A stretch of 64,000 nt of DNA from Malacoraja senta (GCA_038087875.1 CM075991.1:8930001-8994000), one strand, 5' to 3'. Shown: positions 1,381-60,210, counted from the first letter of the stretch. Notes: generated by a model from the letters alone, not told the origin. Translations and numbers: made by a program.

Positions 1381-1382
1381 AT

Positions 1383-14616: not shown

Positions 14617-14808
14617 GATAGACACAAAATGCTGGAGTAACTCAGCGGGCCAGGCAGCATCTATGGAGAGAAGGAATGGGTGACAGTTTAGGGTCGAGAC
14701 CCTTTTTAGACCACTCCAACCCGAGACTCGACCCGAAACGTCACCCATTCCTTCACTCCATAGATGCTGCCTGGCCCGCTGAGTTACTCCAGCATTTTGT
14801 GTCTATCT
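14617..14808. mobile_element. Foldback (inverted) pair of Penelope terminal repeats
   Basis: Arms GATAGACACAAAATGCTGGAGTAACTCAGCGGGCCAGGCAGCATCTATGGAG and its reverse complement. Confidence 0.85.
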
Positions 14809-15299
14809 TCCACTCAATCTGAAAATGGATACGGAACCAAAATGTTATCTGTCCATTCCCTCTGCGGATGCTGTCTGACCCACAGAGTTTATCCGCTGTT
14901 TCTTTGCCCACAGTGTGTTTAATAGATACTTGGCGGATTATTTGTCACGGCTGAGTTACTGCTCCTCATGTCTCAACTTGTATGAAAGATGTTGGTGTGG
15001 CAAAAGCAGCCCTCTCCCCTTCCTGCAATGCAAACCTTCACCCCTACCCCCCTCCCCTCCATTTGAGCAGTGTGGTAGCAGAGTGCACCATCCACAATAG
15101 CCTCACCCAAGGCTGTGTAGGCAGGGTTTGGGTTCCGATATAATGCACTCAGCCCCGCAATAGCCTGGAGCAAACACAAGATATGAGCCACTGTAACACA
15201 ATTAGACATTACCAGAAGGCAGTTAATTCCCTTGGAAGTGCATCCATGTAATAGCTGTCAACTTGGTTCCAGTGCAGAGGCTGTGAGGAGTTGGGGGGG

Positions 15300-15720
15300 T
15301 GGGGATTCGGCAGCAGCAGGAGCCTCGGCAGTAGCAGGAGCCTCGGTGGAAGTAGGAGCCCCAGCAGCGGTGGGGCCTCGTGATCGATCTGCGATCAGCA
15401 GTTGATGAGCATGAGGGGACCGTCGTGAAGAACAATGGGGACCCGGCTTGGGGTCCCGCCAGGAGGGACGGTGGGAGATCAAAGGGGGACCCGGTGTGGG
15501 GGAGGGGAGGGCACTCTAGTTTTCGAATCCTCTGCGTTTGGTTGTTTGTTTGTTCATTTGCGCTGTGCACATGGCAGCCAGCCAACAGTCGCTTTTTTTC
15601 ACTTTAAAATTAATTTACATTTCAAGTTTTCGTGTGACTTGTTGTGTGTTGTGACTGTTGGCAGACCAATTTCCCTCCGTGGATGAATAAAATTCCATCG
15701 TATTGTGTTGTATCATATTG
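15300..15720 (+). mobile_element. Probable non-autonomous retroelement 3' part (GC-rich body, Rex/Babar-like tail)
   Basis: Ends AATTTCCCTCCGTGGATGAATAAAATT followed by GTATT-like repeats. The body has 18-bp GCAGCAGGAGCCTCG-type repeats. Confidence 0.45.
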
Positions 15721-15774
15721 CAAATAGATAGAAATCCATCACAGAACTACCAAACAAAGACTTCAAATTCTAAT

Positions 15775-16182
15775 GTGTAAGAAGAAACTGCAGATGCTGG
15801 TTTAAACTGAAGATAGACACAAAAAGCTGGCGGGGACAGGCAGCATCTCTGGAGAGAAAGGAATGGGTGACGTTTCGGGTCGACCCCGAAACGTCACCCA
15901 TTCCTTCTCTCCAGAGATGCTGCTTGTCCTGCTGAGTTAAGGGCTTGGCCCACTTGGTCGTCATTTGCGCGTCATGCAGGTGGCGTGCGAAGATTTTGTG
16001 AATCCCGAAATCCTGGGGCACCGTGTCAATGCCTCACGCCACCACGTCTCACCACGTGCCAGCTGCGCGTAATGCATGCCATGCAGCGTCATGTATGCAT
16101 CACGCATAAATGATGTCGCGTAAATGACCGGCAAATAACGCCCTAGTGGGACAGGCCCTTTACTCCAGCTTTTTGTGTCTCC
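15775..16182. mobile_element. Foldback Penelope mini-element with 14-bp TSD, containing a MITE
   Basis: TSD CTTCAAATTCTAAT at 15761-15774 and 16183-16196. Centre reads GACGTTTCGGGTCGACCCCGAAACGTC. Confidence 0.85.
15940..16159. mobile_element. PIF/Harbinger-type MITE
   Basis: TIR AGGGCTTGGCCCACT/AGTGGGACAGGCCCT, TTA duplicated at 15937-15939 and 16160-16162. Confidence 0.85.
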
Positions 16183-16871
16183 CTTCAAATTCTAATCCTC
16201 TTGTTCCCACACCAATTCCATTCTTCTCCCTTTTACAGCAGTCCACTTGTTAGTTCAGAACACATCTCTAATCAGCGAAACATTTAATTTAAAGCTTAAA
16301 TTGGGATGGTTGCTCAAACGATCAAGTCTGTGCTTCTATCCTTGACCTTGCTTGAAGCTATTGAGGTTTTGTGTTTACTGATGGTACCTGGAATCTATTT
16401 AACGAGAGGCCACATTCAGCGTCAGCTTTGATAGATTTCACAGCAGGAGACGACACTGCTCCTTGGAGCGCAAAGGCTACATTGCGTTTTGCTTAAAGCT
16501 GAAATTGAATCAGACTGCTGCTGTCAATTCATTTGCAATATTCTCTTCCCTCAATTATAAGACAGCTTCAGCAATATAAACACACGATACCGGAATTGGA
16601 GAAGAAAATTGGGAATTCACAAAATCAAAAATGTTGTCCCATCCACACAATGTGTTTGATGAAGGGTCTCGACCCGAAACATCATCTATTATTTTTCTCC
16701 AGAGGTGCTGCCTGACCTGCTGAGTTACTCGATCATTTTGTGTCTATCTTCTTTGTCATTTCTTACAGCCTTGAGCAGAATTGTGTTAATTGTGTGTTTT
16801 GGTTTTTTGCTGTTATGACTGCAGGAACAAAATTTTGTTTGAACCTTGTATGTTTAAATGACAATAAATGG

Positions 16872-16913
16872 CATTCTATTCTATTCTATTCTATTCTATT
16901 CTATTCTATTCTA
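16872..16913. repeat. (ATTCT)n microsatellite, probably a retroelement tail
   Basis: About 8 tandem ATTCT units just after AATAAA. Confidence 0.9.
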
Positions 16914-16989
16914 TAGGATACTTTCAAAGCTGCATTCAATTATGGGATTTGTGTAGGTTTAATGTAAATAGTTGGTTGATGTTGACTTT

Positions 16990-17440
16990 CAGTTGAGTTT
17001 TAGTTCATTGACATGTAGGCTGAGGTACAGTGAAAAGCTTTTGTTACCTGCTAACCATTCAGCAGAAAGACACTACCCGATGACAACTGAGCCACTTACA
17101 GTGTATAGATACATGAGAATGGAATAACGTTTAGTGCAAGGTAAAGCCAGCAAAGTCCGAGCAAGGATAGTCTGAGGGACGTCAAAGAGGTAGATAGTAG
17201 TCCAGGACCGCTCTCTGGTTGTGGTAGGATGGTTCAGTTGCCTGATAACAGCTGGGAAGAAACTGTCCCCGAATCTGGAGGTGTGCGTTTCACACTTCTA
17301 TACCTTTTGCCTGATGGGAGGGGGGAGAAGAGCAGTGGCCGGGGTGCGACTCGTCCTTGATTCTGCTGCTGGCCTTGCTGAGGCAGCGTGAGATATAAAT
17401 GGCGTCAATAGAAGGGAGTTGGTTTGTGTGATGGTCTGGT
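16990..17440 (-). mobile_element. Rex/Babar-like LINE 3' end
   Basis: QTITQTN...LLPPPIRQKV coding remnant plus a 3' UTR that recurs at about 24440, 31620, 34245, 43900 and 63085. Confidence 0.75.
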
Positions 17441-17965
17441 GTGAAGTGATGTGATGTGGTGGGATAAATGTGTGATTCAGTGTGTTTGACTGTGATACAT
17501 CTGCTGAATTGATCATTGGGGTCAAGTTTTTGTTTTGTTTTGCCTCACATCAGTGTCCCAGATGTGCGTATAGAGCATCAGCAATAATGGTTCCTCCCGG
17601 TTAAAAGGCCTGCTTTTCTTGGTTTATCAATAGGGTTACAATTATTGTGCCTTTCGCATGAATTGCCGTCACTACTAAAACGTAGAATGTAACATTGAAT
17701 TGGATTGCCAGCCAAGGGCTTTGCATTGAAAACCTCGAGTGGTGCTTCAACCTTCTACAATTTCAAGCGTGAAACCAAAGCAGTGAAACCAAAATGTCCA
17801 ATGTGTCAGCTTCCATTAAAATAGGTTAAGCAATCCCCCATCATTTGTTTCGACAAAAACAATAGTCACAGCAAATATTTTTGCAGATTGAGAATATTCT
17901 TACACTATTGAGCGGTATATTAAATGGAGATGTAGAATTTCACAAGCAACGAAGTCACAGTGAAC

Positions 17966-18149
17966 ACACACACATGCACAAAAATGCTGGAGTAACTCAG
18001 CGGGACAGGCAGCATCTCTGGAGAGAAGGAATGGCTTTACCTTTCTGCCATTCCTTCTCTCCAAAGATGCTGCCTGTCCCGCTGAGTTACTCCAGCATTC
18101 TGTGACGACCTTTGATTTCAACCAGCATCTGCAGTTCTTTCCTGCACAT
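17966..18149. mobile_element. Foldback Penelope mini-element with 15-bp TSD
   Basis: GAAGTCAC(A/G)GTGAAC at 17951-17965 and 18150-18164, with inverted arms between. Confidence 0.8.
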
Positions 18150-18814
18150 GAAGTCACGGTGAACCTTTACTGTCTCAAAAAATACTGTTTGGCTACAGAT
18201 AGACACAAAATGCTGGGGTAACTCAGCGGGTCGGGCATCGTCATCTCTGGAGAAAATAGATAGCTGGCGTTTCAGGTCGGGACCCTTCTTCAGACTGATT
18301 GTCGGGGGGGGGGGGTTAGGGGTAGGCGTTGACAATGTGGGTGGAGTGAACGGGCTGGGGTTGTTCACCTGGGCAAAGAAAACATAAATGTTATGAAGGT
18401 ATGATTATGAAGATGTTGACCTCAATTGCATATCAAAGTGGAGCTGTGTGAAGACTGGGCTCTGATGTAAAACCCAAAGCAATGTAAAAAAGTGAGATAG
18501 CAATGGGAATACTTTATGTTCAGAGTGAGTTATATTTCAAATTTGATTTGAAAAGCAAATATCATCACGAGTAACTCATCAAAACTTTTCAACATCCGCA
18601 TCCAGCTACTGTTTACATGTGGTGAGGGTTTTTGTCTTTATAAGTCTTTCATCAAGTCATAGTTATACTCATAACATTACAGTGAGCATCCTGTTCCTCA
18701 CAGCGCCAGAGACCCGGTTGTGATCCTGACCTCAGGTGCTGTCCATGTGGAGTTTTTCTGCACTCCAGAGTACAGAAACCAGAGTACCCAGAAGAAACCC
18801 AATTGATCATAGGG

Positions 18815-19272
18815 AAAGCCCCACTGCGGGACGTGGATTTACCATCAGAGCCGATCCCTTGCCAGGGATCGACGCTCCAACCTTGGCCTGAGGATTTTAC
18901 CATCGAGGAGCTCGCAGTCTCGGGTAGAGACAGATGTCGGGAAGCTCCAAATGATCGCCCGGCGCGGGGAGTTGACATCCCCCCATGCAGGAGTCCGGAT
19001 CGCCACGACGCGGAGGGCCCGACCGCCGGCTACAGGAGTCCAGATCGCCCCGTCAACAGAAGGCTCGAGGCCCCCGACCACAGGAGAACAAAGAAGGGAA
19101 GAGATTGAACTTTTTTTCGCCTTCCATCACAGTGAGGAATGTGGAGGAGTCACTGTGGTGGATGTTCATGTTAAAATGTATTTTGTGTGTTCTGTTGCTT
19201 TTTATTGGTACGACTGTACGGCAAATGAAATTCCTCGTATGTTCCAAAACATACTTGGCTAATAAATGATGA
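18815..19272 (+). mobile_element. Probable non-autonomous retroelement (GC-rich body, AATAAA-containing tail)
   Basis: Internal repeats CAGGAGTCC(G/A)GATCGCC, then a 3' end GAAATTCCTCGTATGTT...ACATACTTGGCTAATAAA resembling Rex-type tails. Confidence 0.45.
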
Positions 19273-19949
19273 TTATAAAAGCATGCAAACTCCACATAGA
19301 CAGCAAATGTGGTCACGATTAAACCTAGGAAACTAGAGCTTTGTTGCAACATCTCCACTTGCTGAGCCACTGTGCCGACATTGAACGTTGACAGTAGATT
19401 GATAGAAAACAGCCCCATTGGTAAGTGTGTCCAGATCTAGGGGACATGTTTTTCTTTTTACACAGAGTGTTGGGAGCCTGGAATGTATTGCCAGGAGTGG
19501 TGGTGGAGGCAGATATGATAGTGGTGTTTTAAGAGGCTTTTAGACAGGCCCATGGGAATGTAGGGTATAGAGGGATATGGATCACACGCAGGGGAAGAAG
19601 ATAGGTTTAACTAGACTTCATGTTCTGGTACAAACGTTGTGGGCCGAAGGGCACATTCCTGTGCTGTACTGTTCTGGGTATTTCATTAAGCCGCTTGGCT
19701 AAAAACACAAAGAAGTGATTAAAGGGACACATCTTCTAACAGGGAGAGTCGGTAGGATTCGGAATACATTGCCAATGGATTCAATTCTTGGGCTCGTATA
19801 GGATTCATCATCATCGTTGAAAACATCAGCGACGCAGTGGTGCTGGTTTCCAACGGGAACGGTGACGGACGCACCACACATCTCTGTCCTCCATTCCCTG
19901 TGGACTTCCGCCACTGGATGTACAGGATTTTGGTGTGTGTGTGTGTGTG

Positions 19950-20215
19950 CTTCATCATCATTCCTTACAATGCCGTGTACGACAGTGATCGCAACTTCTA
20001 CTGAAGTGTGGATGGCCGTTGGCTCGCTAGGAGCTCATCCGCCCTTTGACAGCTCTTGTTTTTGGTCCTGCTGGGGGTCCACAGCCCCCTCCTCACCTGG
20101 CAAACCAGGTGGGGGGAGACGGTTTAGTCGCCGACTATCCGCCCATGGGGCAGGTAGCACGGGATTACATGGTACCCGTGGTGAGGGGGGGAACTGTCCC
20201 CCCGACCTGACCTCA
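19950..20215 (-). mobile_element. RTE-like non-autonomous element fragment
   Basis: The minus strand ends ...GGAATGATGATGAAG. The body has several GC hairpins, such as CACCTGG-CAAA-CCAGGTG. Family assignment is by resemblance only. Confidence 0.4.
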
Positions 20216-21171
20216 TATAGGAGCTTAATACAAATCCAAAGTCAAAGAACATGCAGGATATGAGGGAGAGCAGTTGGAACAAGCTGCCAGAGGAGGTAGT
20301 TGAGGCAGGTTCTACAACAACATCTAAAAGAAGATAGACACAGAATGCTGGAGTAACTCAGCGGGTCAGGCAGCATCTCTGGAGAAAAGGAATAGGTGAC
20401 GTTTCGTGTCGAGATCCTTCCGCACACTCTTTAGTCTGTTCTTTAGAGATTTAAAAGACATTTGGATAGGTACATGGATAGGAAAGGTTTAGAGGGATAT
20501 GGGGCAAACGTGGGCAGGTGGGAGTAGTGTAGAAGGGGCCTGTTAGTCGGCAGGGACAAGTCAGGTCGAAGGGCTTGTTTCCGTGCTGTAATACTCTGAG
20601 GACAAAGAATGCAACTAGGTGAATTGCTCTACATTGGGCTAGAATGAATTTAATGGGCCAAATAATCTCCTAAATTACTGCTATCGGTGAGATCTTGTTT
20701 TGCTCTTAGACTTCACATGAAAACAAAGTGGAAGAATGGGATTAACAGGAGTTGTGGAGGTTAATGGGACATATCCTCCTACATGTTGTTAGAGCTATTT
20801 AAAGTTTAAAATACTTAATTAAAAATAGCTAACTCCATAAAAACGGTCCTTAAACTATTAACTCAGTGGCCTAATCAGAGGCTAATGGAATGTCATTCTG
20901 ATGCGGCTCATAAGTATTGTTTTCAGTCAGATTATACTCTGCATGAGTGCAATTGAGCTGTATACAAATACAACAGGTAGTGGTGAAAAGAGGAAAGTAC
21001 CAGAGTGCAGAATATAGTGTTACACGCTCAGAGAAAGGGCAGATTGAAATAAAGTTCAAGGGCCCAAGAAGGTAGGTTGGGAGATCGGGGCTACACCCTC
21101 AGTTTGTGAGGGGACCATTCAGTAGTCTGATTACAGCGGGAAAGAACCTGTTCTTGAAACTGGTGGCATGT

Positions 21172-21926
21172 GGGGGCCACGGTTTAAGAATAAGGAGTAA
21201 GCCATTTAGAACGGAGACGAGGAAACACTTTTCCTCACAGAGAGTGGTGAGTCTGTGGAATTCTCTGCCTCAGAGGGCGGTGGAGGCCGGATCTCTGGAT
21301 GCTTTCAAGAGAGAGCTAGATAGGGCTCAAAGATAGTGGAGTCAGGGGATATGAGGAGAAGGCAGGAACAATAGACAATAAACAATAGGTGCAGGAGTAG
21401 GCCATTCGGCCCTTCGAGCCAGCACCGCCATTCAATGTGATCATGGCTGATCATCCCCAATCAGTACCCTGTTCCTGCCTTCTCCCCATATCCCCTGACT
21501 CCGCTATTTTTAAGAACGCTATCTAGCTCTCTCTTGAAAGCATCCAGAGAACCAGCCTCCACCGCCCTCTGAGGCAGAGAATTCACAGACTCACCACTCT
21601 CTGTGAGAAAAAGTGTTTCTCGTCTCCGTTCTAAATTGCTTATTCCTTATTCTTAAACTGTGGCCCTGGTTCTGGACTCCCCCAACATCGGGAACATGTT
21701 TCCTGCCTCTAGCGTGTCCAAGCCCTTAACAATCTTATATGTTTCAATGAGATCCCCTCTCATCTTTCTAAACTCCAGAGTAGACAAGCCCAGCCGCTCC
21801 ACTCTCTCAGCATATGACAGTCCCGCCATCCCTGGAATTAAACTTGTAAACCTACGCTGCACTCCCTCAATAGCAAGAATGTCCTTCCTCAAATTAGGGG
21901 ACCAAAACTGCACACAATACTCCAGG
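21172..21926. mobile_element. Two CR1 3' fragments in inverted orientation (+ 21172-21368; - 21368-21926)
   Basis: ORF 21106 (+) and ORF 21653..21955 (-) carry CR1 motifs, and the arms are reverse-complementary. Confidence 0.9.
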
Positions 21927-21974
21927 TGTCTATTGTCTATTGTGGTTTCCTGCACCTATTGTCTATTGTGTTGA

Positions 21975-22250
21975 CATCGACAATTGGGAAACCAATGCCA
22001 AGGACAGGAAACTCTGGCAAACCATCACCTAAGAAGGAGCAGCGACCTTCGAAGCCAAGAGTTAGAAGAAAAGAAGAAGAAAACGGAAAGAGAGGCAGCA
22101 ACAACTAAAGCCCGATCTGCCATCTGGAATTACCTGTCTTGAATGTCGAAGAACTTTCAAAGCAGGATTGGACTCATAAGCCACCTGAGTGTCCATAAAA
22201 ACAAATTGTAGACCATCAACCTCGGCCTCGAGGGATAGCCACGACGACGA
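21975..22250 (+). mobile_element. RTE-clade LINE 3' end with C2H2-like motif and (GAC)n tail
   Basis: EEKRRKRKERQQQLKPDLPSGITCLECRRTFKA..IGLISHL (one frameshift), then GGGATAGCCACGACGACGAT. Confidence 0.8.
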
Positions 22251-22311
22251 TCGTGGTTTCAAGCTTTTGCATCTTCTGCCCAAAGGGAGAAGTGTGGATC
22301 ACCAGGGTCTA

Positions 22312-22607
22312 AGCGTTTAGTCTGGAGATACAGCGAGGAAACAGGCCCTTCAGCGCACGGAATCCGTGTCGACCAGCGATCCCCACATAGTAACCGTGTG
22401 CTACACACAATAGGGACAATTTATCATCATACCAACCTAATTCGCCTGCAAACCTGTATGTCTTTGGAGTGTGGGAGGATCCCGGAGAAACCCACCAGGT
22501 CACGGGAGAACGTACAAACCCCGTACAGACAAGCGCCCGTAGTCAGGATCGAACCCATGTCTGGCGCTGTCAGGCAGTAGCTCAACCACTGCGCTACCAT
22601 GCCGCCC
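22312..22607 (-). mobile_element. V-SINE (HE1-like)
   Basis: Head, core and tail all recognisable. Confidence 0.85.
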
Positions 22608-23049: not shown

Positions 23050-23292
23050 AGGTAGACATAAATGCTGGAGAAACTCAGCGGCTGAGGCAGCATCTATGGA
23101 GCGAAGGAATAGGTGACGTTTCGGGGCGAGACCTTTCTTCAGACTGACCCGAAACGTCACCTATTCAGACTTCACGACCCGAAACGTCACCTATTTCCTT
23201 CGCTCCATAGATGCTGCCTCACCCGCTGAGTTTCTCCAGCATTTTTGTCTACCTTCGATTTTTCCAGCATCTGCAGTTCTTCCTTAAACAAA
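23050..23292. mobile_element. Foldback Penelope mini-element with 15-bp TSD, inserted in a CR1 3' fragment
   Basis: AAATAAATTCTTCCA at 23035-23049 and 23293-23307. The centre has GACCCGAAACGTCACCTATT twice. Confidence 0.85.
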
Positions 23293-23814: not shown

Positions 23815-23965
23815 TCTATCTCTTTCTCTCTCTCCCTCTCTCTCTCCCCCTCCTCCTCTCTGTCCATCTCTCTCTCCCCATCTCCCTCCCCATCTGCCTG
23901 TCTGTCTCTGTCTCTTTCTGTCTGCCTGTCTCTCTCTGCCTCTCTCTCTCTCTCTCTCTCCCCCT

Positions 23966-36363: not shown

Positions 36364-37122
36364 TTAGTTTGCAAGAGTGCCCACAAGAGTTTCTGCACGC
36401 CTGTTGCTTTAATTCTCCATCTTATTCCCAGTCATTCTTTGGTGTCTTACACTGTTCCAACAAAGCTCAGTGCAAGTTGTAGGAACAGCGTCTCATTTTA
36501 TATCTGGTCGCACGTGAATTCTCAGAACTCAATATTGAATTCAGCAATTTCAGGTAATTCTGGATCTGAATCTCACATTCTCAGACTTCAGTGAGTAGGA
36601 AGGAACTGCAGATGCTTGTTTAAGCCGAAGATAGACTCAAAACGCTAGAAAGCAATTAGAAAGACAAATAGTACATTACCCTTCATTGTAAGATGATTTA
36701 AGTACAGGAGTAAAGACATCTTACTGAAATTATAAGAGGATGGAAACAAAATGCTGGAGTAACTCAGCGGGACAGGCCGCGGGTCACCCAAGGGATGGGT
36801 GACGTTTCGGGTCGAGACAGTCTGAAGAAGGATCTCAAACCGAAACGTCACCCATTCCTTCTCCTCAGACTTTAGTTATTTTTTCTCTCCCATTGTCAAA
36901 TATTTCAGATTTTATGGTGGGATAACACAGCATGGCCATTCAGTTTCTGAGAATTTAGGACCATCGAACCTGATGCATATATTTGATTCCCAACATTGGA
37001 GGTGGCAAATTAATCTACAAGTCAGTAAAGAAGTCTGGATTTTAAAAAAAAAATCACCCCCTTAAAAGTGCACAAATAGCTGTCTGTGTGGAGTTTGTAT
37101 GCGCGTGGGTTTTCTCCGGGTG

Positions 37123-38007: not shown

Positions 38008-38952
38008 CAAGTCAAGTCAAGTGAGTTTATTGTCATGTGTCCCTGGTAGGACAATGAAATTCTTGCTTTGCTTGAGCACAACAGAACATAGTAGGCATTT
38101 ACTACAAGGCATTCTATAAATATATACACAATGGTCAATATACTGATAACGTGCAAATAACAGTATTGGCTAGTAAAGTTCAGTGTTATGTCCGAGCCAG
38201 GTTTAATAGCCTGATGGCTGTGGGGAAGTAGCTATTCCTGAACCCGGTCGTTGCAGTCTTCAGGCTCCTGTACCTTCTACCTGAAGGTAGTAGGGAGATG
38301 AGTATGTGGCCAGGATGGTGTGGGTCCTTGATGATGCTGCCAGCCTTTTTGAGGCAGCGACTGTGGTAGATCCCCTCGATGGAAGGGAGGTCAGAGCCGA
38401 TGATGGACTGGGCAGTGTTTACTACTTTTTGTAGTCTTTTCCTCTCCAGGGCACTCAAGTTGCCGAACCAAGCCACGATGCAACCGGTCAGCATGCTCTC
38501 TACTGTGCACCTGTAGAAGTTAGAGAGAGTCCTCCTTGACAAACCGACTCTCCGTAATCTTCTCAGGAAGTAGAGGCGCTGATGTGCTTTCTTAATAATG
38601 GCATCATTGTTCTCGGACCAGGAAAGATCTTCAGAGATGTGCACGCCCAGGAATTTGAAGCTCTTGACCCTTTCAACCATCGACCCGTTGATATAAACGG
38701 GACTGTGGGTCCCCATCCTACTCCTTCCAAAGTCCACAATCAGTTCCTTGGTTTTGCTGGTGTTGAGGGCCAGGTTGTTGTGCTGGCACCATATGGACAG
38801 TTGCTCGATCTCTCTTCTATACTCTGACTCATCCCCATCAGTGATACTTCCCACAACAGTGGTGTCATCAGCGAACTTGATGATGGAGTTCGCACTATGT
38901 CCGGCTACGCAGTCCTGAGTATAGAGTGAGTACAGCAGGGGGCTGAGCACGC
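38008..38952 (-). mobile_element. Rex/Babar-clade LINE, 5'-truncated, open RT C-terminus, (TTGAC)n tail
   Basis: ORF 38186..39004 CVLSPLLYSLYT...IIKFADDTTVVG...LNTSKTKELIVDF...KKAHQRLYFLRRL...LLPSGRRYRS. Inserted in a CR1 3' fragment. Confidence 0.93.
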
Positions 38953-39325
38953 AGTCTGAGTCTGAGGCTGTGACTTCCTTGCCCCCAATAACCTTTGACA
39001 CCATTGTTAATCAAGAATGTGTCAACATCCACTTGAAAAAATACACAATGGCTTGGCCTCTACAGCAATGAATGCCACAGATTCACTCTAAAGATGCGTG
39101 CTTTTTTCTGAGGCTGTGACCTCTTAGCCTAGACTCTCCCACTAGCGGAAACATCCTCTCCACATCCACTCTAGCCTGGCATTTCACTATTTGGTGAGTT
39201 TCAATGAGTGTCCCCCCCCCCCCTTCCTTCTAAACTCCCGTGAGTACAGGCTAAGAGCTGTCAATGCTCATCATACATTAACCCAAACATTCCCGGGAAC
39301 ATTCTCGTAAACCTCTACTGGACTC

Positions 39326-39525
39326 NNNNNNNNNNNNNNNNNNNNNNNNNNNNNNNNNNNNNNNNNNNNNNNNNNNNNNNNNNNNNNNNNNNNNNNNNNN
39401 NNNNNNNNNNNNNNNNNNNNNNNNNNNNNNNNNNNNNNNNNNNNNNNNNNNNNNNNNNNNNNNNNNNNNNNNNNNNNNNNNNNNNNNNNNNNNNNNNNNN
39501 NNNNNNNNNNNNNNNNNNNNNNNNN
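39326..39525. other. Assembly gap (200 N)
   Basis: Run of N characters. Confidence 1.
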
Positions 39526-45095: not shown

Positions 45096-45845
45096 CATAT
45101 AACCATATAACCATATAACAATTACAGCACGGAAACAGGCCATCTCAACCCTTCTAGTCCGTGCCGAACACGTATTCTCCCCTAGTCCCATATACCTGCG
45201 CTCAGACCATAACCCTCCATTCCTTTCCCGTCCATATAACTATCCAATTTATTTTTAAATGATAAAAACGAACCTGCCTCCACCACCTTCACTGGAAGCT
45301 CATTCCACACAGCCACCACTCTCTGAGTAAAGAAGTTCCCCCTCATGTTACCCCTAAACTTTTGTCCCTTAATTCTCAAGTCATGTCCCCTTGTTTGAAT
45401 CTTCCCTACTCTCAGTGGGAAAAGCTTATCCACGTCAACTCTGTCTATCCCTCTCATCATTTTAAAGACCTCTATCAAGTCCCCCCTTAACCTTCTGCGC
45501 TCCAAAGAATAAAGCCCTAACTTGTTCAACCTTTCTCTGTAACTTAGTTGCTGAAACCCAGGCAACATTCTAGTAAATCTCCTCTGTACTCTCTCTATTT
45601 TGTTGACATCCTTCCTATAATTAGGCGACCAAAATTGTACACCATACTCCAGAATTGGCCTCACCAATGCCTTATACAATTTTAACATTACATCCCAACT
45701 TCTATACTCAATGCTCTGATTTATAAAAGCCAGCACACCAAAAGCTTTCTTTACCACCCTATCTACATGAGATTCCACTTTCAGGGAACTGTGCACAGTT
45801 ATTCCAAGATCCCTCTGTTCACCTGCATTCTTCAATTCCCTACCT
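45096..45845 (-). mobile_element. CR1 LINE, distinct subfamily with (TGGTTATA)n tail, open RT C-terminus
   Basis: ORF 45182..45889 QRDLGITVHSSLK...LYKALVRPILEYGVQFWSPNY...NFFTQRVVAVWNELP. Inserted into another CR1 fragment. Confidence 0.93.
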
Positions 45846-46644
45846 AATCTGTGGAATTCCTTGCCACAGACGGCTGTGGAGGTCGGCATTGGGTATTTTA
45901 AGGGGAAGATTGACAGATTTTCTTGAGAATAAAAGATAGATCAGCCATGACTGAATGGTGGAACAGACTAAATGGGCCGAATGGCCTAATTCTGTACCTA
46001 TGACTTATGAGCTTATAAAATTATGAAGTGTTCAACACTCAGGCTAGCCTCAGTTTTTAAGGTTAATGGAAAATAAAGGGCTTGAAGTGTTTACAAGTTG
46101 ATGTTTTCACCTGAGGGTCCACCTTTATCATAAACCACCAAACGTTGCTACAGAAAACGGCTTCTTCCCTCCACGAGCTTCGATCTACTGTGCATGCCAG
46201 AGGCACTGCAAGAACAGAGCGGATAAACAAAGCTCTGAACTCAAAGACAGCAGTACAAAGAAACATGGGAGAATTACATAAAAATCTGGAGTAACTCAGT
46301 GGGTCCGGCAGCATCTCTGGAGAAAAGGAATAGGTGACGATTTGAGTTGGGACCCTTGTTCAGACCCAAAAGGTCACCTATTCCTTTACACCAGAGATGC
46401 TGCCTGTCCCGCTGAGTTTTTGTGTCTATCTTCGGTTTAAACCAGCATCTGCAGTTCCTTCCTACAGTATTACATGCAGGCCCGGGCAACCATGAAAGGT
46501 AGGATTTCAAAGTAATCTTGCACAATTTGACCATGTTGTTAGCGTGTATATGTTAATGGCTATTTTCCGCTTTGGTACAGTGAAAACCGTTGTTTTGCAT
46601 GCTATCCAATCGGATATACTTAAATGCAATCAAGTCAAACGCAA

Positions 46645-49451: not shown

Positions 49452-51175
49452 TATGCTGATATACACAGAGGATAAAGAAGGACCTGCTGTGGGGGAGGAG
49501 GGGGGGAGGAGGGGGCGGGACAAAGGAGGACCTGGCGTGGGATGTTTTGTAACGTTGTCGGCGCCCTTTATGTAGCGACTCTTTGCATACCTTGGGTGTG
49601 CAAAACAAAGCATTTATCTGTGACTCGTCACACGTGGCAATAAAGTATTCAATAATTCATAAGCCACAGGTAACATTGCAGTAAGCTATACACAGGGACT
49701 AAGGATGGGACAGGGCGAATGGATATGGGTTGCCCAGCTTGCCATCCAGCCATTGTCAGTTTAGTGTGGACACAGCCCTATGGTTGAAGATAGACACAAA
49801 ATGTTGGAGTAACTCAGCGGGACAGGCAGCATCTCTGGAGAGAAGGAATGGGTGACGTTTCGGGTCAAGACCCTTCTTCAGACTCTGTGTACAATCAGAA
49901 CATTCATCATCTGAAGAAAAACTATTGCGAAAAACCGTTGTAAATGCTGGAAATTTTAACTAAATCTAACCCGAAACGTCACCTATTCCTTTTCTTCAGA
50001 GTAGCTGCCCGTCCCGCTGAGTTACTCCAGCCTTTTGTGTCTATCTTCAGCCTAAACTAGCATCTGCAGTGCCTTCCTACATCTCTGCTTGAAGGATTCC
50101 TTTATGAAATATTATTCAACACAACACGCACATGAGAATAATCACTTGAACAAACACAATGCAAGATATTGGGTGGCATATTTCCCAAATGAACTGCACT
50201 GTAACGATATTACCAATCTCTGTAACAATATGTATAACGGAATATATTATAATTCATATCAGAATAAATATTATTAACAATAAGTATATATTCATTCAGG
50301 AGTTGTGGATGTTGTCAGAAGAATTAGAGGTTATCTCATGGAATCATAAACATTTCTTGCATCAGGTGAGGGTTTTATGACACCACTGCAGTATTGCAGT
50401 GTCTAGAAAGAGGGTTAAGTCCTCCCTCCACCACCTCCAGTTTAAATTCCATTTGGAATATTTTGGAGCACCAAGAAACCAAGAACCAAGAGGGCTCAGC
50501 CTCATATTAAAGGGTGTGGTCATTCATGACCAAGGTGAGAAGACATGTTATCACCTTGAGGGTAATGAATCTTTGCAATTCTCTGTCCAAGACCCGCACA
50601 GTATATTCAAGGCACAGTTCGAAAGATGTTTTGATATTATGAATATCAAGCTATATGATGTGGAGGATGGAAATACAGATACCGGTTTACACCAGAGATA
50701 GACACAAATTGCTGGAGTAACTCAGCGGGACAGGCAGCATCTCTGGAGAGAAGGAACGGGTGATGTTTTGCGTCTCGACCCGAAACGTCACCCATTCCTT
50801 CTCTCCAGAGATGCTGCCAGTCCTGCTGAGTTACTCCAGCATTTTGTGTCGATCTCAGAATATAATATTGCCTGTGTTTGATCACAGTTCAATGAAGGTT
50901 TAGTACGATGGTCAGCATCAAAACCACAAGGTTCTCGGTATGCTCCAAAACTCTTCTGCAAACTCTTCACTCGTAGATTGGCAACTCAAACCCAATGTTG
51001 TGATATGTGGAGTTTGTCCTTTTCCATTGATTCCCATTCCTTACTCCAAAAGGCAGTCTGAAGAAATGTCCAAGTCAGGTAGGCTACTCCATAGATGTGG
51101 AAACAAAGAACTGCAGATGCTGGTTTACAAAAAAAGAAACAAAGTGCAGTAGTAACTCAGCAGGTAAGGCAGCAA

Positions 51176-53180: not shown

Positions 53181-53482
53181 AAGATAGACGCAAAAAGCTG
53201 GAGTAACTCAGCGGGACAGGCAGCATCTCTGGAGAGAAGGAATGGGTGACGTTTCGGGTCGAGACCCTTCTTCAGACTGGTTAGGGATATGGGAAACGAG
53301 ACATAGACGGTGAAGTGGAGAGATAAAGAATAATGAACGCACGATATGCAAAAAAGTTACGATGATAAAGGAAACAGGCCATTGTTAGCTGTTTAGTAGG
53401 GAGAAATGAGAAGCTAGTGCGACTTGGATGGGGGAGGGATAGAGAGAGGGGGAATGCCTGGGCTACATGGTGAGAGAAATCA
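53181..53482 (-). mobile_element. Penelope terminal repeat with intact hammerhead core (53248-53275)
   Basis: GACGTTTCGGGTCGAGACCCTTCTTCAG, and a 3' UTR similar to 37123-37450. Confidence 0.8.
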
Positions 53483-53812
53483 AACCCTTCAATGTCTCTC
53501 GTAATCTTATATACCTCTATCAGATCGTCCCCTCCGCGTCTTTTACTCCAGAGAGTATAAGCCCAGACTATTCAATCCTCCAGTCCAGGCAACATCCTGG
53601 TGAAACTCCTCTGCACTCTCTCCAATGCAGTTACAACACCTTTTAGTCTACAAAAACAGTACTGCAGTCAACCACCCTTATACTTGATGTCTGAAGAAGG
53701 GTTCCAATACAAAACATCACCTATTCTTTCTCTCCAGAGATGCTGCCTGACCCGCTGAGTGACTCCAGCATTTTGTGTCTATCCTGACTTGGGCAATACG
53801 TGACCCCAAATT

Positions 53813-54102
53813 GGGCAGCACAGTGGTAGAGTTGCTGCCTTACTGCACCAGAGAGCCGGGTTCGATCCAGACAACGGGTGCTGTCTGTACAGTGTTTGCA
53901 CGTGACCTGCGTGGGTTTTCTCTGGGGACTCCGGTTTCCTCCCACATTTCCAAAGACGTGCAGGTTTGTAGGCGGATTGGCTTCGTTAAAAATTGTAAAT
54001 TGTCCTTTGTGTGTAGGATAGTGTTAGTGAGCAGGGATCGCTGGTCGGCACGGACTCAGTGGGCCAAAGGGCCTGTTTCCACGCTGTATCTCGAAACTGA
54101 AC
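53813..54102 (+). mobile_element. V-SINE (HE1-like)
   Basis: Head, core and tail recognisable. Confidence 0.88.
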
Positions 54103-54124
54103 TAATACTTAACTCAGGACCTAA

Positions 54125-54445
54125 AACCCCTGTCCCACTGTACGAGTTCATTCCAAGAGCTCTCTCGAGTTTAAAAAAAATCAAAACTCGTGGTAAGCAC
54201 GGAGAATGAACGTAGCGGGTACGTCGGAGCTCGGGGACGTCTCTTAGCGTCTCGTAACGCTAACGGCAGGTTACTCGGGAAGACTCGCTAATGGCAGGTA
54301 AGCACGGGAAGACTTGTGAAGATTTTTCAACATGTTGAAAAATGTCCAAGAGAGCCCCGAGTGGCCATTCCGTAAATCTCCGAGCTCGAATCAGGGCAAA
54401 CTCGGGAGAGCTCTTGGAATGAACTCGTACCGTGGGACAGGGCTT
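54125..54445. mobile_element. PIF/Harbinger-type MITE
   Basis: TAA at 54122-54124 and 54446-54448, with CCCTGTCCCAC TIRs. Confidence 0.92.
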
Positions 54446-56904
54446 TAAGTATTTTATCTCTTCGTCACAGTAAGCACCAAGCAGAGATTGGAAGGAAAGA
54501 GTTAAAGAGGAAACATAATTAAAGTTCTCTGTGCCTTTATTAGTTATTTACATTAATCAAGATGAGACACTTTATTCTAATCCCATCTACACTTCATGCT
54601 GAATTAATGGAGTACCTCATACGTCACTTCCAATAACAGCAAATTAGATCTTAAGATGGACTTAATAGCATCATTCATTTTTAAAATGTGGAGCCTGATT
54701 AGCATAAAGCTGCCAATAATTTCCCAGTATTGCCACTGCAGCTGCTCGTTACAGAGATGGGAAATGCATACCCAGGACCTGGTGAACTAAATTGGACCTG
54801 GCTGCTACAATTATCTGTGTTTTAGGTGGTTTAACATCTCCTTCAGTTTCTATCATGTAATGAATTACTTCGAACGTTCGGAGTGTCTTGTTGGAGTAGT
54901 CAATTACTAAATAGGATTCAAGCAGAACTGCGTGTTAAGCAAAAAAAACACAAACAAATTTTTGACCTTGTTCCTTCAAAATTATGTGCATGCTGTTGAA
55001 CTAGCTAGATGATGAGAGTTTATTGGTGATTGTAATTCAAAGTGAGAGTGGTTTTTAAAATGTGTACGAAGGAACTGCAGATGCTGGTTTAAACCGAAGA
55101 TAGACACAAAAAGCTGGAGCAACTCAGCGGGACAGGCAGCATCTCTGGAGAGAAGGAATGGGTGACGTTTCGGGTCGAGACCTTTTCTTGTTCTCCAATC
55201 CATGTGTGTCTGTCTCCTCATTCTCTCTGTAACATCTTCCAACTCCCACGTTCCAAAGACCTGCAGGTTTGTAGGTTCTTGTGAGGGAAGGAACAGCAGA
55301 TGCCGGTTTACACCGAAGATAGACACAAAATGCTGGAGTAAATCAGTGGGACAAGCAGCACCTCTGGAGAGAAGGAATCGGCGACGTTTCACCATGGGTC
55401 TCGACTCAGTCTACCCCACGACAGAAGGGGGTGGAGTTGTACAGTTTGATAGCCATAGGGAAGAAGGTTGTGAACAGTCTATTGTGGATTGGATTGTTAT
55501 AGGAATTAGTGTAAATGAGTGGTTGATGGTCAATGCAGACTTGACGAGTTAAAGGACCAGTTTTTATGCCGTATGATTCTCTGACTTAAAACTTAACAAT
55601 CTCAAATACACACATTGGTAAAATCTCCTGCTTGCACTTTCATAATATTGCCCATTGCTCTAACCCACATCCACACCTTATTTACCTCTCAGGTGGACAT
55701 TTCCAATTATCTCGGTCAAAGGAGAGCGGGTCTTGGCCACGATCATTAATACGTGTGTTCAGAGGGCAGTTCTTTGATGGAGAATCTCCAACATTACAAA
55801 GAGGTAAAGGTGACGAGATCTAGTAATGCACAATGTCAAATATCACAGCCAAAGACTTCTGACAAGTGCAAAAGGACAAATCATATGTTTGTGTGTTGGA
55901 TTAGTTTAGTTTAGATGCTGCCTGACACGCTGAGTTACTCCAGCTTTTTGTATCTATCTTTGGTATAAACCAGCATCTGCAGTTCCTTCCTACAGGTTGT
56001 GGGCTGAAGAGACTGTTTCTGTGCTGTAGTTTAGCTTAAATATACAGCGCGGAAACAGGCCTTTCGGCCCCCTCTCACCTGAAAGCTATACCTTCTGGTA
56101 TCTGATTTTTCCATCTTGGGAAAAGGGTTCTGACTAACATGATGAGTGGACTAATTATTTTGGTTCTCAAGAAATTTTAAACAGCTTCTGGCTTTGACAT
56201 TGGACAGGAGAGTAGGAAGAATTACAATGGAAATAACAATTTTTAAAAAATGCTGAAAATCCATAAATCTGAGAAAGTTCTGATCCCCTCGCCACAGAAA
56301 CTGCCTAACTTGCTGAAAAATAAAAGTTTTCAGATATAATTTCCTGCATTTGCAATGGTTTTTCTTCAGATGATGAATGCTCTGATTGTAAACAGAACAT
56401 GCTGGTGAGTCAGAGGAAGGGTCTCGATCCGAAACGTCACCCATTCCTTCTACCCAGAGATGCTGCCTGACCCGATGGTTTGTGTCTATCTGCGGAGTAA
56501 ACCAGCATCTGCAGTTCCTTCCTGCACATGCTGATGCAACTCAGCGCGTCAGGCAGACTCCACCGGAAGAGAATCAGTCAATGTTTCAAGTCTACAGCAC
56601 TAACAGAACTGGAGACAAAGGGGCTACAGAGTGTTTTTTATCTCCCCACAGATGCTGCCTGACAAGCTGAGCATGTCCAAAGTGTTGTGTTTTTGTTTAA
56701 GACTTTGTTTTAAAATTTCAATGGAGTTTTTTTTATTTGGTTGGACAGGAGGAGATGTGGTGAAAACTATCCACTAGCAGAAGGATCTAAAAACTGAAAT
56801 GCCAGATAGTTCCTTGATAAATCCAATTGAAACATGTGGTGAGATGTCTTTTCTCAAAGAGTGGTTGGAATGGGGAAGCTGCTATGGTAGAGAAAACTTT
56901 AATT

Positions 56905-57195
56905 TTGAGATACGGCTCGGAAACAGGCCCTTCGGCCCACTGAGTCCGCACTGACCAGTGATCCCCGCACATAAAACACTACCCTACACACACGCACCAG
57001 GGACAATTTACACTTATACCATGCCAAATAACCTACAAACCTGTACATCAGCGGAGTGTGGGAGAAAACCGAAGATCTCGGAGAAAACCCACACAGATCA
57101 TGGGGTGAACGCACAAACTCCGTACAGACAGCACCCGTGGTCAGGATCAAACCCGGGTCCCTGGCGCTGTAAGATTGTAGCTCTACCACTATGCC
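56905..57195 (-). mobile_element. V-SINE (HE1-like)
   Basis: Head, core and tail recognisable. Confidence 0.88.
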
Positions 57196-57674
57196 AGCGT
57201 GCCAGCTCTTGCCTTTAAGAAGAAAATATTCCAGTACTGGACATGAGGAGGGAAAAATAGGAGATAGAAAGAAAAGCAGAAAAACTGAGGTTGGCTTAAT
57301 GGAATGGGGGGGGGGGGAGGCAAAGCATATAAGACACAAAAGGAAATAGGAGAGGTGTGCCACTCGGCCCATCATGCCTGCCATATCATCCAATATGGTC
57401 GTGACTATTCTGCCCCAGGCATGAACTCTTCTCTGACAGCCCCCCCCCCCCATAGCTCGCAATTCCCTGATCTTTCAAAAACATAATTACCTCTTCTTCA
57501 AGTACCTCCAGTGATCTAGCCTCCATATTCCTTTAAGAAACAAAATTCCAGAGATTTACCAACCTTGGTGAGAGGAAGTTGCTCCAAAGCACCTTTGGTT
57601 TTGGAAATTACTGACTTGTAATCCTGTAACTATGTGCCCTTTTTCCTGATCTCTCCCACTAGTAGAAACATCTT

Positions 57675-57976
57675 AGTTTAGATTAGTTTAGTTTAGAGAT
57701 ACAGCACGGAAACGGGGGTACTTCGGCCCACCGACCAGCGATCCGCGCACACTAACACCATCCTACACACTCGGGACCATGTACAATCTTTACGGGAAGC
57801 CAATTAACCTATAAACTTGTACGCCTTTGGAGTGTGGTAGGAAACTGGAGCACCTGGGGAAAAACCACGGTCACGGGGAGAACGTACAAACTCCGTACAG
57901 ACAGCACCTGTAGTCAGGATCGATCCCGGGTCTCTGCGCTGTAAGGCAGCAACTCTACCGCTGTGTCACTGTGCTG
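57675..57976 (-). mobile_element. V-SINE (HE1-like)
   Basis: Head, core and tail recognisable. Confidence 0.88.
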
Positions 57977-58008
57977 CATCTTACCATCTACCCTGTCAAG
58001 CTTTCTTA

Positions 58009-58204
58009 AGGTGTTTAAGAAGGAACTGCAGATGCTGGAAATCGAAGGCACACAGAAAATGCTGGAGAAACTCAGTGGGTGCAGCAGCATCTATGGAGCG
58101 AAGGAAATAGGCAACGTTTCGGGCCCGAAACGTTGCCTATTTCCTTCGCTCCATAGATGCTGCTGCACCCGCTGAGTTTCTCCAGCATTTTTTTTGTGTA
58201 CCTC
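58009..58204. mobile_element. Foldback Penelope mini-element with 12-bp TSD
   Basis: CAAGCTTTCTTA at 57997-58008 and 58205-58216. Perfect palindromic centre AACGTTTCGGGCCCGAAACGTT. Confidence 0.88.
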
Positions 58205-60210
58205 CAAGCTTTCTTATGGTCTGCGTACTTCACCAAGATCACACCCCTCCAAGATCAAACTCCAGATACCTCCAAGGCAGACTCAAAATGCTGGAGTAAC
58301 TCAGCGGGACAGGTACAGCACATCCAATTGCTTTAGCCATGCATGGAGTATTTTGGGAATTTCCTTTCCAATTTTGAGGAATTCCTTTTGGGGTGGAACC
58401 ATCTCTTAACTTGCTTCATGCTCAATATAATTAGACAGAGTCTGAGGAAGGGTCTCGACCCGAAACGTCACCCATTCCTTCTCTCCAGAGATGCTGGCCG
58501 GTCCCACTGAGTTACTGCAGCATTTTTTAGTCCAACTTCGGTATAAACCAGCACCTGCAGTTCTTTCCTGTACGATTGTGTATGACAAGCAAACCATCTC
58601 AAGGTGGTGACTCCACGAATTCTGCCATGGTGTTGCCGCTAAGTTTGTGCTTGACATTTCTTATGGTTAACCTCACCACCAAGGGAACGTTGTGTTCTAA
58701 TTTCAATAAATCTCTTCTCTGCCGTGTTGGAAGTTTGAAAGGAACAGAGTGTGTTGTAATGATGTGTAAAACAGAAGCTGGGAATTAAAGCTAAATAATT
58801 CTACCTATTATCGATAAATAATCGGGCAAGGTATGCTCAAGGGAATGCTGGATAGTCTAACTATTTTTTTTAATTGCTTGAGCAACCAAAATAATATATT
58901 TTATATATACAAGGACTAAATAATTGTTAGTTTTATAGTTTTGAAACTGTTTGGGGCTTCAAACCTCTGGTGAAACTCTGCTTCCCGGGTGGAATGGCTG
59001 GGAAACATTGACTGTGGCAGAAGTCAAGCAGCTGCCTCATAGCTCCAATCATCAGTGCTGTCTGTGTGGAGCTTGCCCGTTTTTTTTCTCTGCAAGCGCG
59101 CATTTCCCCCTGGTCTCATGCTACAAAGTGTCAGCTGCAGGTATGGATGAAGGTCCAATGCAGCCTCTCAACCTGCAGTGGTTTGACTACATGAGACCTG
59201 CCAGAACAAGTCACGGCCATTGACTTGGTTCCAGTGGGCCAGATACCTCAAGTCAACCCTACCAGTCTCCTACATATGGCTGAAGAGAGGTCTCAACCCG
59301 AAACGTCACCTATTCCTTCTCTCCAGAGATGCTGCCTGTCCCGCTGAGTTACTCCAACAATTTGTATCTATCTTCTTACAAATGTCCGCTGGGTTAACAT
59401 CCTTGGTGTGCTTCTGGTCACATCCACTGTTACCTGTCATCTCCACTATGTTTCTTGATGCACCTTCAGTTTGCATGTTCATGATCTTCATAGACACAAA
59501 AAGCATGATTAACTCAGCGGGACAGGCAGCGTCTCTAGAGAAAAAGTCAGGAGAGTGATCAGTTGTTCTGGGGATAGACACAAAATGCTGGTGCAACTCA
59601 GTGGGACAGGCAGCGTCTCTGGAGAGAAGGAATAGGTGACGTTTCGGGTCGAGACCCTTCTTCAGACTGAAAGTCAGGGGAGAGGGAAATGAGAGATATA
59701 GACGGTGATGTAGAGATACAGAATAAATCTTCAATTGGCTTTTCCCATGATCGAACCTATTGCCCGCTCTCTTTTATTACATTATTTCCATATTTTCGTT
59801 ATATTTTCACATATGACTATTTCCATCGTGATTAAGCCAGCTCTCAGGGCAATCCTATCAAACGCATGCCCCACTTGTTTTCCCGCAGCTTACTCTCCCA
59901 CGTGCTCAGCACCTTCACCCTGGTTTTCCTATCACCCACCTACACCAGGAGCCATTTATAGTAGCCAATTAATTGTCCCAATCCGTCTTTGGGACATGGG
60001 AGGAAACCAGAGCAACCATGGGTAACATGTGCGTTCACAGGGAGAATATAAAAATTGCAGACAGTGCCTGGAAAATAGGATTGAACTCGGTTTGGAGGAG
60101 CTGCAAGTGTCGATAAATCACTATATTGCTGACCCGATCCATGCCGGGTTTTCACAATGCCATCTTGTGGTATGCGGTTAGCTGGGCGCGGCAGTCAATT
60201 TTGATAAGGA

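What the first reader, a model, noticed from the sequence alone, without database searches (positions are those of the whole stretch)
14617..58216. Foldback Penelope mini-elements: single TSD-flanked insertions with the inversion centred on the hammerhead
Seen: inverted terminal-repeat pairs bounded by 12-16-bp direct repeats at 15775-16182 (CTTCAAATTCTAAT), 17966-18149 (GAAGTCACRGTGAAC), 23050-23292 (AAATAAATTCTTCCA), 27459-27613 (CTTAGGTTTTATTTAA) and 58009-58204 (CAAGCTTTCTTA). Similar pairs lie at about 14617, 30858, 46280, 49786 and 50690. In the cleanest cases the symmetry axis is stem II itself: AACGTTTCGGG|CCCGAAACGTT (58114-58135) and GACGTTTCGGGTCGACCCCGAAACGTC (~15869-15895). The two arms usually differ in length, and the centres differ between copies. 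Known: Penelope insertions often carry an inverted truncated terminal repeat. Inference: each unit forms anew during reverse transcription, when the cDNA folds back at or near the ribozyme hairpin and self-primes. The product looks like a MITE but has a retrotransposon origin.
Basis: partly seen in the sequence, partly recalled or inferred. Interest (0 to 1): 0.72.

Follow-up and report, generated by a model that had tools for sequence, protein, structure and literature searches.

The report
Two-armed Penelope retroelement insertions
These small hairpin-shaped inserts are real single insertions of a Penelope-type jumping gene in a cartilaginous fish, and their lopsided arms suggest the enzyme started copying RNA from both cut ends of the chromosome and the two copies were then joined, rather than one copy folding back on itself.

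Summary
The structures are real. All 5 named units have the stated 12-16 bp target-site duplications. The window holds 14 head-to-head pairs among 80 hits to one Penelope terminal repeat; arms share subfamily variants (0.81 vs 0.59 shuffled); termini, centres and TSD lengths vary, so they are not MITEs. The architecture (inverted pLTR, one-sided tail, TSD, palindromic junction, self-priming idea) is published (PMC3846280). The centre is near, not on, the ribozyme: of 26 inner arm ends, 13 lie in stem II, 8 at a sharp boundary 2-5 nt before the core, none at the cleavage site. Simple fold-back fails a direct test: the second arm cannot hold sequence the first lacks, yet in 6 of 8 informative units the arm crossing the centre is the shorter one, and 10 of 13 units carry the ~34-nt tail on exactly one arm. 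Best reading (0.55): both nicked target ends prime cDNA at the two tail-flanking start sites known in vitro (PMC11167929), and the cDNAs are joined at stem II microhomologies. Small sample; no whole genome was available.

The parts
15775..16182 (.). Unit E3: long left arm (minus, +14..+130), short right arm (plus, +14..about +92) split by a MITE; 4-bp overlap TCGA at the centre; 14-bp TSD at 15761 and 16183
15940..16159 (.). Nested fixed-end MITE with TTA duplication, inserted at +70..+72 of the right arm of E3
17966..18149 (.). Unit E4: short left arm (+31..about +90), long right arm (+31..+130), 13-nt spacer, no ribozyme core; 15-bp TSD (1 mismatch)
23050..23292 (.). Unit E5: SHORT left arm crosses the whole ribozyme (-5..about +94), long right arm from +15 to +129; 27-nt templated spacer; 15-bp exact TSD. 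Cleanest case against simple fold-back
27459..27613 (.). Unit E6: long left arm (+36..tail), short right arm (+35..about +92), 10-nt spacer with a 7-nt inverted copy of the right arm; 16-bp exact TSD overlapping both arm ends
58009..58204 (.). Unit E15: long left arm, short right arm, loop-less palindrome centred GG|CC (+17/+18) at 58123/58124; 12-bp exact TSD
14607..14810 (.). Unit E2: left arm -2..+103, right arm +13..+96, 15-nt spacer, no tail, no TSD found; compatible with fold-back
30521..30776 (.). Unit E7: old, both arms with tail, right arm from -5; no TSD
30857..31029 (.). Unit E8: long left arm ends at +53 (or +36 through an imperfect overlap), SHORT right arm starts at -4; 8-bp TSD (weak)
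35786..35964 (.). Unit E9: old; short left arm from +16, long right arm from -3; no TSD; compatible with fold-back
36593..36863 (.). Unit E10: left arm +11..+97 with a distal piece +75..+128 behind an 86-nt insert; right arm -4..about +48 only; 13-bp TSD (1 mismatch) around the whole
46280..46465 (.). Unit E11: SHORT left arm to -2, long right arm from +16, 3-bp overlap GAC; 10-bp TSD with 1 mismatch (not above chance)
49784..50081 (.). Pair E12 (left out of the counts): short left arm to -3, 84-nt spacer that matches the flank of the solo at 56408, long right arm from +17
50661..50859 (.). Unit E13: axis on the stem II loop, loop read in the sense of the SHORT right arm; left arm carries the tail; no TSD
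62979..63081 (.). Unit E16: left arm +11..+72, right arm -2..+36, both cut short; no TSD
6566..7177 (+). C-terminal remnant of the Penelope-like ORF (GIY-YIG endonuclease region), followed by a pyrimidine-rich 3' region and the terminal repeat at 7281-7377: ties the repeat to its parent element
8148..8337 (-). Solo copy with upstream region, ribozyme (C3 at 8277) and tail; used as the reference for laying public contigs
34111..34245 (+). Solo copy -3..+130 with 12-bp TSD and two extra G before -3: anchors the 5' boundary

Best explanation
Each unit is one integration of a Penelope-like element in which BOTH ends of the staggered target cut prime reverse transcription (twin or dual priming). 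Positions count from C3 of the ribozyme core (+1). The enzyme, probably a dimer, nicks the two strands 8-16 bp apart (TSD: shown). One 3' end starts at the site near +94..+96, the other at the site near +129..+132, the two ends of the ~34-nt tail (end positions shown; priming there inferred from the anole enzyme). Both cDNAs are antisense and about 60-120 nt long, so they face each other head to head. The one started at +96 usually runs to a boundary at -5..-2, probably the RNA's 5' end (inferred); the other stops earlier. The free ends are joined through a few complementary bases, which stem II supplies best (GAC/GTC, TCGA, GGCC, GGGTC), or through short templated fillers (junctions shown; end-joining route inferred). 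The ribozyme acts as a source of self-complementary sequence next to the RNA's start, not through cleavage.
For: In 6 of 8 informative units the arm crossing the centre is 25-49 nt shorter at its outer end; a fold-back copy cannot be longer than its template. 10 of 13 units have the tail on exactly one arm (p 0.045 against independent arms), 2 of 13 on neither (p 0.007 against fold-back). Short-arm ends coincide with ends of solo copies: 23 of 44 solos lack the tail, 21 have it; in public contigs loose ends with random AT-rich flank lie at +94..+96 in 4 of 4 runs and at +129 in 1 of 4 among the 24 rows shown. The anole enzyme cuts and extends both strands, starts at two sites flanking the tail with no strand difference, prefers uncleaved RNA and is modelled as a dimer (PMC11167929). 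Two centres are loop-less palindromes, simplest as two ends annealing on a 4-bp palindrome. 7 of 13 centres have 2-27+ nt that belong to neither arm's continuation. All 4 head-to-head-type joints shown have one side at -5..+1. TSD starts match the RNA continuation at 3-4 of 6 bases at 6 of 8 short ends (modest).
Against: n is 13 units from one window; inner ends were set by hand. 6 of 8 is not itself different from a coin toss (p 0.14): it refutes pure fold-back but does not prove 'short arm leads'. 2 units (14607, 35786) go the other way; 4 are ties and 1 has equal ends. Three of the 6 (46280, 50661, 62979) lack a TSD above chance, so later deletion of a tail is possible; 50661 rests on a 2-nt loop; 36593 is complex. 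The two loop-less palindromes could also be fold-backs with one inserted base. The 19-nt piece in the centre of 23050 looks like a real short snap-back. Arms overlap by 50-80 nt, so one RNA must be copied twice or two RNAs used; neither is shown. One search showed only 15 of 108 joints, gave no arm pairs, and the partner side at 8234 may be where the other subfamily loses alignment.
Confidence: 0.55

Rival explanations
1. A free hairpin DNA intermediate: cDNA (or antisense RNA, as proposed for rotifer elements) folds back near the ribozyme, is made double-stranded past the tail, and the endonuclease cuts the two strands about 34 nt apart before integration, leaving the tail on one arm.
For: Explains one tail per unit (10 of 13), shared variants and, with a fixed stagger, 'crossing arm is short' (6 of 8). 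The tail was ascribed to endonuclease resolution of an intermediate (PMC8557442) and palindromic junctions to self-priming (PMC3846280).
Against: Later in vitro work places the tail between two RT start sites (PMC11167929). Does not easily give solos of both lengths with TSDs, the unit with two tails, the arm ending at +48, ends scattered over several bases, or non-templated spacers.
Confidence: 0.18
2. One reading: one target-primed cDNA folds back at or near stem II and copies itself.
For: Junctions cluster in stem II; arms share variants; the cDNA end at -2/-3 reads GAC and can pair with GTC in stem II; units 14607 and 35786 fit; short snap-back pieces at 23050 and 27459.
Against: 6 of 8 informative units have second arms longer than the supposed template; only 2 of 13 lack a tail against about half expected; the one centre with the exact hairpin-loop signature (50661) points to the short arm as first strand.
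Confidence: 0.13
3. Second-hand origin: two separate insertions side by side (the enzyme can cut its own repeat), or retrotransposition of pre-existing hairpin masters, later trimmed by deletion between stem II microhomologies and homogenised by gene conversion.
For: Copies cluster: 7 of 29 neighbouring pairs within 100 nt are not in units and tail-to-tail; E12's arms are discordant; the anole enzyme cuts its own repeat.
Against: One TSD around both arms in 6 of 14; non-head-to-head neighbours agree at only 0.55 of diagnostic sites against 0.81 for arms; no two of 13 centres are the same.
Confidence: 0.09
4. Cut-and-paste MITE amplification.
For: Short inverted-repeat units with TSDs.
Against: TSDs of 8-16 bp, unequal variable termini, unique centres; the repeat follows a GIY-YIG ORF remnant; the window's true MITEs have fixed ends and 3-bp TWA flanks.
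Confidence: 0.02

Closest known systems
Endonuclease-bearing Penelope-like elements with inverted pLTRs (Adineta Pen2a/Pen2/Pen3a, PMC3846280, passages; general scheme PMC8557442, passages; D. virilis form C, PMC2377424, passages)
   Same: Head-to-head repeat copies inside one TSD, 30-40 nt tail on one arm only, overlap or palindrome at the inverted junction, ribozyme in the repeat.
   Different: Here the whole insertion is just the two arms (155-270 bp, no ORF), about one per 5 kb of this window, TSDs are longer (12-16 against 8-10 bp), and the arm asymmetry argues against the self-priming explanation given there.
Poseidon of Anolis carolinensis in vitro (PMC11167929, main text parts 1-2 of 4 and passages; supplements not seen)
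   Same: Two start sites flanking the tail, both strands cut and extended, AT-rich targets, ribozyme cleavage not needed.
   Different: The text read does not deal with inverted insertions or join the two extensions into a model; different family (no tree made here).
L1 twin priming and the postulated 'dual priming' (PMC2837659, passages)
   Same: Two inverted fragments inside one TSD (7-20 bp there), both nicks used as primers, little or no microhomology at the inner junction.
   Different: Twin-primed L1 fragments do not overlap; these arms duplicate 50-80 nt, as dual priming (two RNAs, unproven for L1 in that paper) or double copying of one RNA would give; priming is at internal sites, no poly(A).
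Non-LTR retrozymes (bioRxiv 10.64898/2026.07.22.740005, part 1 of 5 and passages; minimal ribozymes PMC4209133, parts 1-2 of 4)
   Same: Short non-coding Penelope-repeat derivatives with a minimal type I hammerhead; opposite-strand ribozyme pairs 100-700 bp apart were noted in Schistosoma.
   Different: Retrozymes are head-to-tail arrays with a ribozyme in each unit; these are head-to-head and carry at most one whole core.

Membership tests
EN+ Penelope-like element | Repeat lies behind an ORF ending in a GIY-YIG endonuclease, with RT upstream | tested here: met
   ORF remnant 6566-7177 precedes the copy at 7281; Pfam GIY-YIG E 0.05-0.07, below cut-off; relatives from rays and sharks at 53-71% identity, of which P0003 passes the GIY-YIG cut-off and has a sub-cut-off RVT_1 hit. 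No Penelope RT was identified in the window itself.
EN+ Penelope-like element | Minimal type I hammerhead in the repeat (extra base before stem II, G-C closing pair, palindromic stem III remnant) | tested here: met
   Read directly in 3 natural copies against the description in PMC4209133; helix I only 2 bp; Rfam finds nothing. Cleavage not tested.
EN+ Penelope-like element | 30-40 nt tail at one end only | tested here: met
   Ends at about +96 and +130; one tail in 10 of 13 units.
EN+ Penelope-like element | Inverted or tandem repeat copies inside a variable TSD | tested here: met
   6 of 14 units and 5 of 48 solos with score 10 or more that are true flanking repeats (2116, 7513, 10952, 24600, 34113).
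EN+ Penelope-like element | Clade placement (Penelope/Poseidon, Neptune, Nematis) and intron retention | not tested
   No RT tree made; a Cys-rich stretch before the endonuclease recalls the Neptune linker (recalled, no call).
MITE (cut-and-paste) | Fixed symmetrical termini | tested here: not met
   Arms end at different repeat positions and vary between units.
MITE (cut-and-paste) | Fixed TSD length and shared internal sequence | tested here: not met
   TSD 12, 13, 14, 15, 15, 16 bp; 13 of 13 centres differ.
Non-LTR retrozyme | Two or more head-to-tail units each with a ribozyme | tested here: not met
   Units are head-to-head; at most one whole core.
Self-primed cDNA fold-back product | Arm crossing the turn reaches at least as far 3' as the other arm | tested here: not met
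   Fails in 6 of 8 informative units.
L1-type twin priming | Inverted fragments do not overlap (internal deletion) | tested here: not met
   Arms duplicate 50-80 nt in most units.
Dual priming (two RNAs) | Arms may come from different templates | tested here: inconclusive
   Arms mostly concordant; 46280 and 49784 differ at diagnostic sites, but both are old or weakly anchored; subfamilies active at different times would give concordance either way.

The most novel reading that the evidence does not exclude
Priming from both target ends, one at each side of the tail, is the normal Penelope integration route: it yields the inverted repeat, the one-sided tail and the TSD in one step, and when priming happens on the 5' repeat of an uncleaved, capped RNA that starts 3 nt before the ribozyme core it mass-produces ORF-less 100-270 bp solos and hairpins. 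The shark and ray genomes would then hold a very large natural record of the reaction, able to settle the self-priming question.
Probability: 0.4. Interest if true: 0.72.

Novelty: new variant of a known kind. Interest (0 to 1): 0.52.

Why it matters
How Penelope elements make their inverted structures is described as undefined (PMC8557442) and has been put down to self-priming (PMC3846280). These minimal units give a simple countable test (which arm crosses the centre, which carries the tail) that favours two-ended priming and links genome structure to the 2024 in vitro results; an in vitro system exists to check it. Practical points: the units will be mis-annotated as MITEs, and each can give a 50-90 bp RNA hairpin if transcribed (inference; not tested).

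Tried and rejected
Pattern scans for more copies: 26 metagenome, 0 viral, 25 prokaryote-genome loci; none of the 51 matches beyond 34 nt, all chance. Protein scan of prokaryote genomes: 86 pattern hits, none confirmed. Rfam: no hammerhead at gathering score in the window or at E 10 on one copy. Sequencing runs: no RNA holder listed, so expression and the RNA 5' end are untested. table 5c (joints with 1-3 letters between, e.g. 8269 to 8237) gives no orientation and was not used; the tenfold depth drop past 8281 is partly confounded by upstream sequence that differs between subfamilies. RNA folds of two copies were not unusual (z 0.65 and -1.70). Cleavage-site hypothesis: rejected, 0 of 26 unit ends and 2 of 44 solo ends at +27..+30. 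Rows dropped: E12 from the counts of 13 (long spacer, discordant arms; adding it gives 7 of 9); E10 and E16 from the variant test (under 40 shared bases), leaving 12; pairs 1877/2116, 53177/53689 and 56528/56641 not treated as units (other repeats between, different subfamilies or too decayed). Far-TSD hits of score under 11 ignored, since the null reaches them. A 3' splice site at -2/-1 (as in D. virilis, PMC4209133) was considered for the 5' boundary and not excluded.


Full report
Setting. The window is repeat-rich animal DNA; the closest relatives of its GIY-YIG ORF remnant (6566-7177) are from rays and sharks. No whole genome is held. The ORF remnant is followed by a pyrimidine-rich stretch and a ~135-nt repeat that begins with a minimal hammerhead: core CTGAAGA, one extra A, stem II closed by G-C, GAAA, palindromic ACGT, cleavage expected after +28 (description in PMC4209133). 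I number from C3 = +1, with no zero. A profile from 25 window copies finds 80 hits, in two main subfamilies (13 and 35 typed copies).

Observation. All five named units are there with their TSDs. Among abutting hits, head-to-head is 12 of 19, tail-to-tail 3, tandem 4. Arms agree at 0.81 of diagnostic sites against 0.59 when right arms are shuffled (12 units, p 5e-5) and 0.55 for 14 other neighbouring pairs. No two centres are alike. The window's real MITEs, 20 ends with a fixed terminal motif and TWA flanks at nearly all, are a clear contrast; two sit in the same TTA of the repeat. So: single retro-insertions formed anew, not MITEs.

Where the inversions turn. Inner ends of 13 units: 8 at -5..-2, 13 at +8..+20, 5 at +31..+36, none at +27..+30 (values set by hand, uncertain for 30521, 30857 and 50661). 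Solo copies also pile up at the boundary (15 of 44 at -5..+4, of which 2 continue upstream in a different sequence) but rarely in stem II (3 of 44). So stem II is specific to inversions, and the boundary is general. Public contigs agree: laid on the solo at 8130-8360, 75,029-108,897 contigs per run in 4 runs of 4 organisms show loose ends with random flank at -2 (2 runs), +94..+96 (4 runs) and +129 (1 run) among 24 of 1155 rows shown; 5 of 15 joints shown (of 108) change strand, and 4 of them have one side at -5..+1 (orientation inferred by me). The boundary reads TCAGTCT, like an initiator (recalled consensus; an Inr-like TCACT is noted in PMC3846280). Four of 4 solos that begin AGT at -3 without the templated C have G before it, and two with TSDs show only 2-3 extra bases ending in G: suggestive of a copied cap, but a splice acceptor at the same place, as in D. 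virilis, is not excluded.

The test of fold-back. If a cDNA folds back and copies itself, the arm that crosses the turn is the template and the other arm cannot extend beyond it. In 6 of 8 informative units it does: 23050, 30857, 36593, 46280, 50661, 62979; 14607 and 35786 go the other way; 4 are ties and 1 has equal ends. At 23050 a 15-bp exact TSD abuts the short arm, which runs through the whole ribozyme, while the other arm holds 34 more bases; later loss of the tail would have damaged the TSD. Ten of 13 units have exactly one tail and only 2 have none, although 23 of 44 solos have none. At 50661 the centre is what a stem II fold-back of the right arm would leave, yet the left arm has the tail. 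At 58009 and 15775 the palindromes have no loop, which two ends annealing on GGCC or TCGA give with no or one change. Six centres show 1-5 bp of clean overlap, seven show fillers, some copied from the arms; such fillers recall polymerase-theta end joining (recalled, not tested).

Mechanism. The anole enzyme cuts and extends both strands and starts at two sites that flank the tail, on uncleaved RNA (PMC11167929). If both ends of one staggered cut do so, one at +96 and one at +130, the product is what is seen: TSD, head-to-head arms, one tail, and a lead arm that more often reaches the RNA's 5' end. Shown: TSDs, end positions, junctions, asymmetry, arm kinship. Inferred: priming at both ends in vivo, dimer, RNA start at -3, joining route, one or two RNAs. 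A hairpin intermediate resolved by a staggered cut explains much of the same and is the main rival (0.18); pure fold-back is left with a minority of units and the short fillers (0.13).

What is known. Inverted repeats inside a TSD, the one-sided tail, junction palindromes and self-priming are in PMC3846280 and PMC8557442. Very short insertions are usual for some Penelope-like families (median 128 bp, PMC9977147). Twin and dual priming are L1 models (PMC2837659; a twin-priming intermediate is described in 10.1101/2024.12.14.628481). My searches listed no paper that applies them to Penelope inversions or describes these two-arm units in cartilaginous fishes; the library lacks most subscription papers, including older Penelope mechanism papers, so this is weak. 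Papers seen: PMC11167929 and PMC4209133 parts 1-2 of 4; the retrozyme preprint part 1 of 5 and passages; PMC8557442, PMC3846280, PMC9977147, PMC2377424, PMC3681739, PMC2837659 and the L1 preprint as passages only; no supplements. Notes from this scan report like units in other shark-like genomes and file them as the known pattern (unchecked).

Verdict. Real; a new, minimal variant of a known Penelope insertion type. The sample is small, but the test is cheap to scale. Interest 0.52.

Noticed in passing
window 49784-49968 (minus) and 56323-56500 (plus): The left arm of pair E12 plus its whole 84-nt spacer aligns end to end with the solo at 56408 and its upstream flank 6.4 kb away, apart from a 12-nt gap over that solo's TSD and a 13-nt duplication: a read-through copy or local capture, or a shared chimeric master.
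   Followed up: partly
window 15940-16159 and 29886-30328: Two different MITEs of one terminal-motif family inserted at the same TTA (+70..+72) of the Penelope repeat; eight more such MITEs in the window. PIF/Harbinger-type by the TWA flank (recalled).
   Followed up: partly
window 3942/3944, 56527/56528, 63427/63409: Tail-to-tail abutting pairs: an antisense copy starts right behind a long end. A joint of this kind (8149 to 8193) is in all 4 runs. The inner copies are more decayed; unexplained.
   Followed up: no
repeat positions -1..+10 and +37..+49 (e.g. window 30932-30945, 34111-34160): The ribozyme core can pair with a downstream stretch, an alternative fold that would switch the ribozyme off and gives a second imperfect microhomology used at 30857.
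   Followed up: partly
window 34111-34245, 56405-56530, 58436-58572, 20330-20430: Solos starting at A(-3) carry a non-templated G just before it (4 of 4), as a copied RNA cap would leave.
   Followed up: partly
window 30851-30856: Six bases between the left TSD and the long arm of unit 30857 are the reverse complement of six bases just beyond the right TSD; may be chance.
   Followed up: no
window 599-1420, 12236-12760, 33560-34165, 38186-39010, 45182-45940: Several 3' remnants of LINE reverse-transcriptase ORFs (38186 hits Pfam RVT_1); a 200-base N gap at 39326-39525.
   Followed up: no
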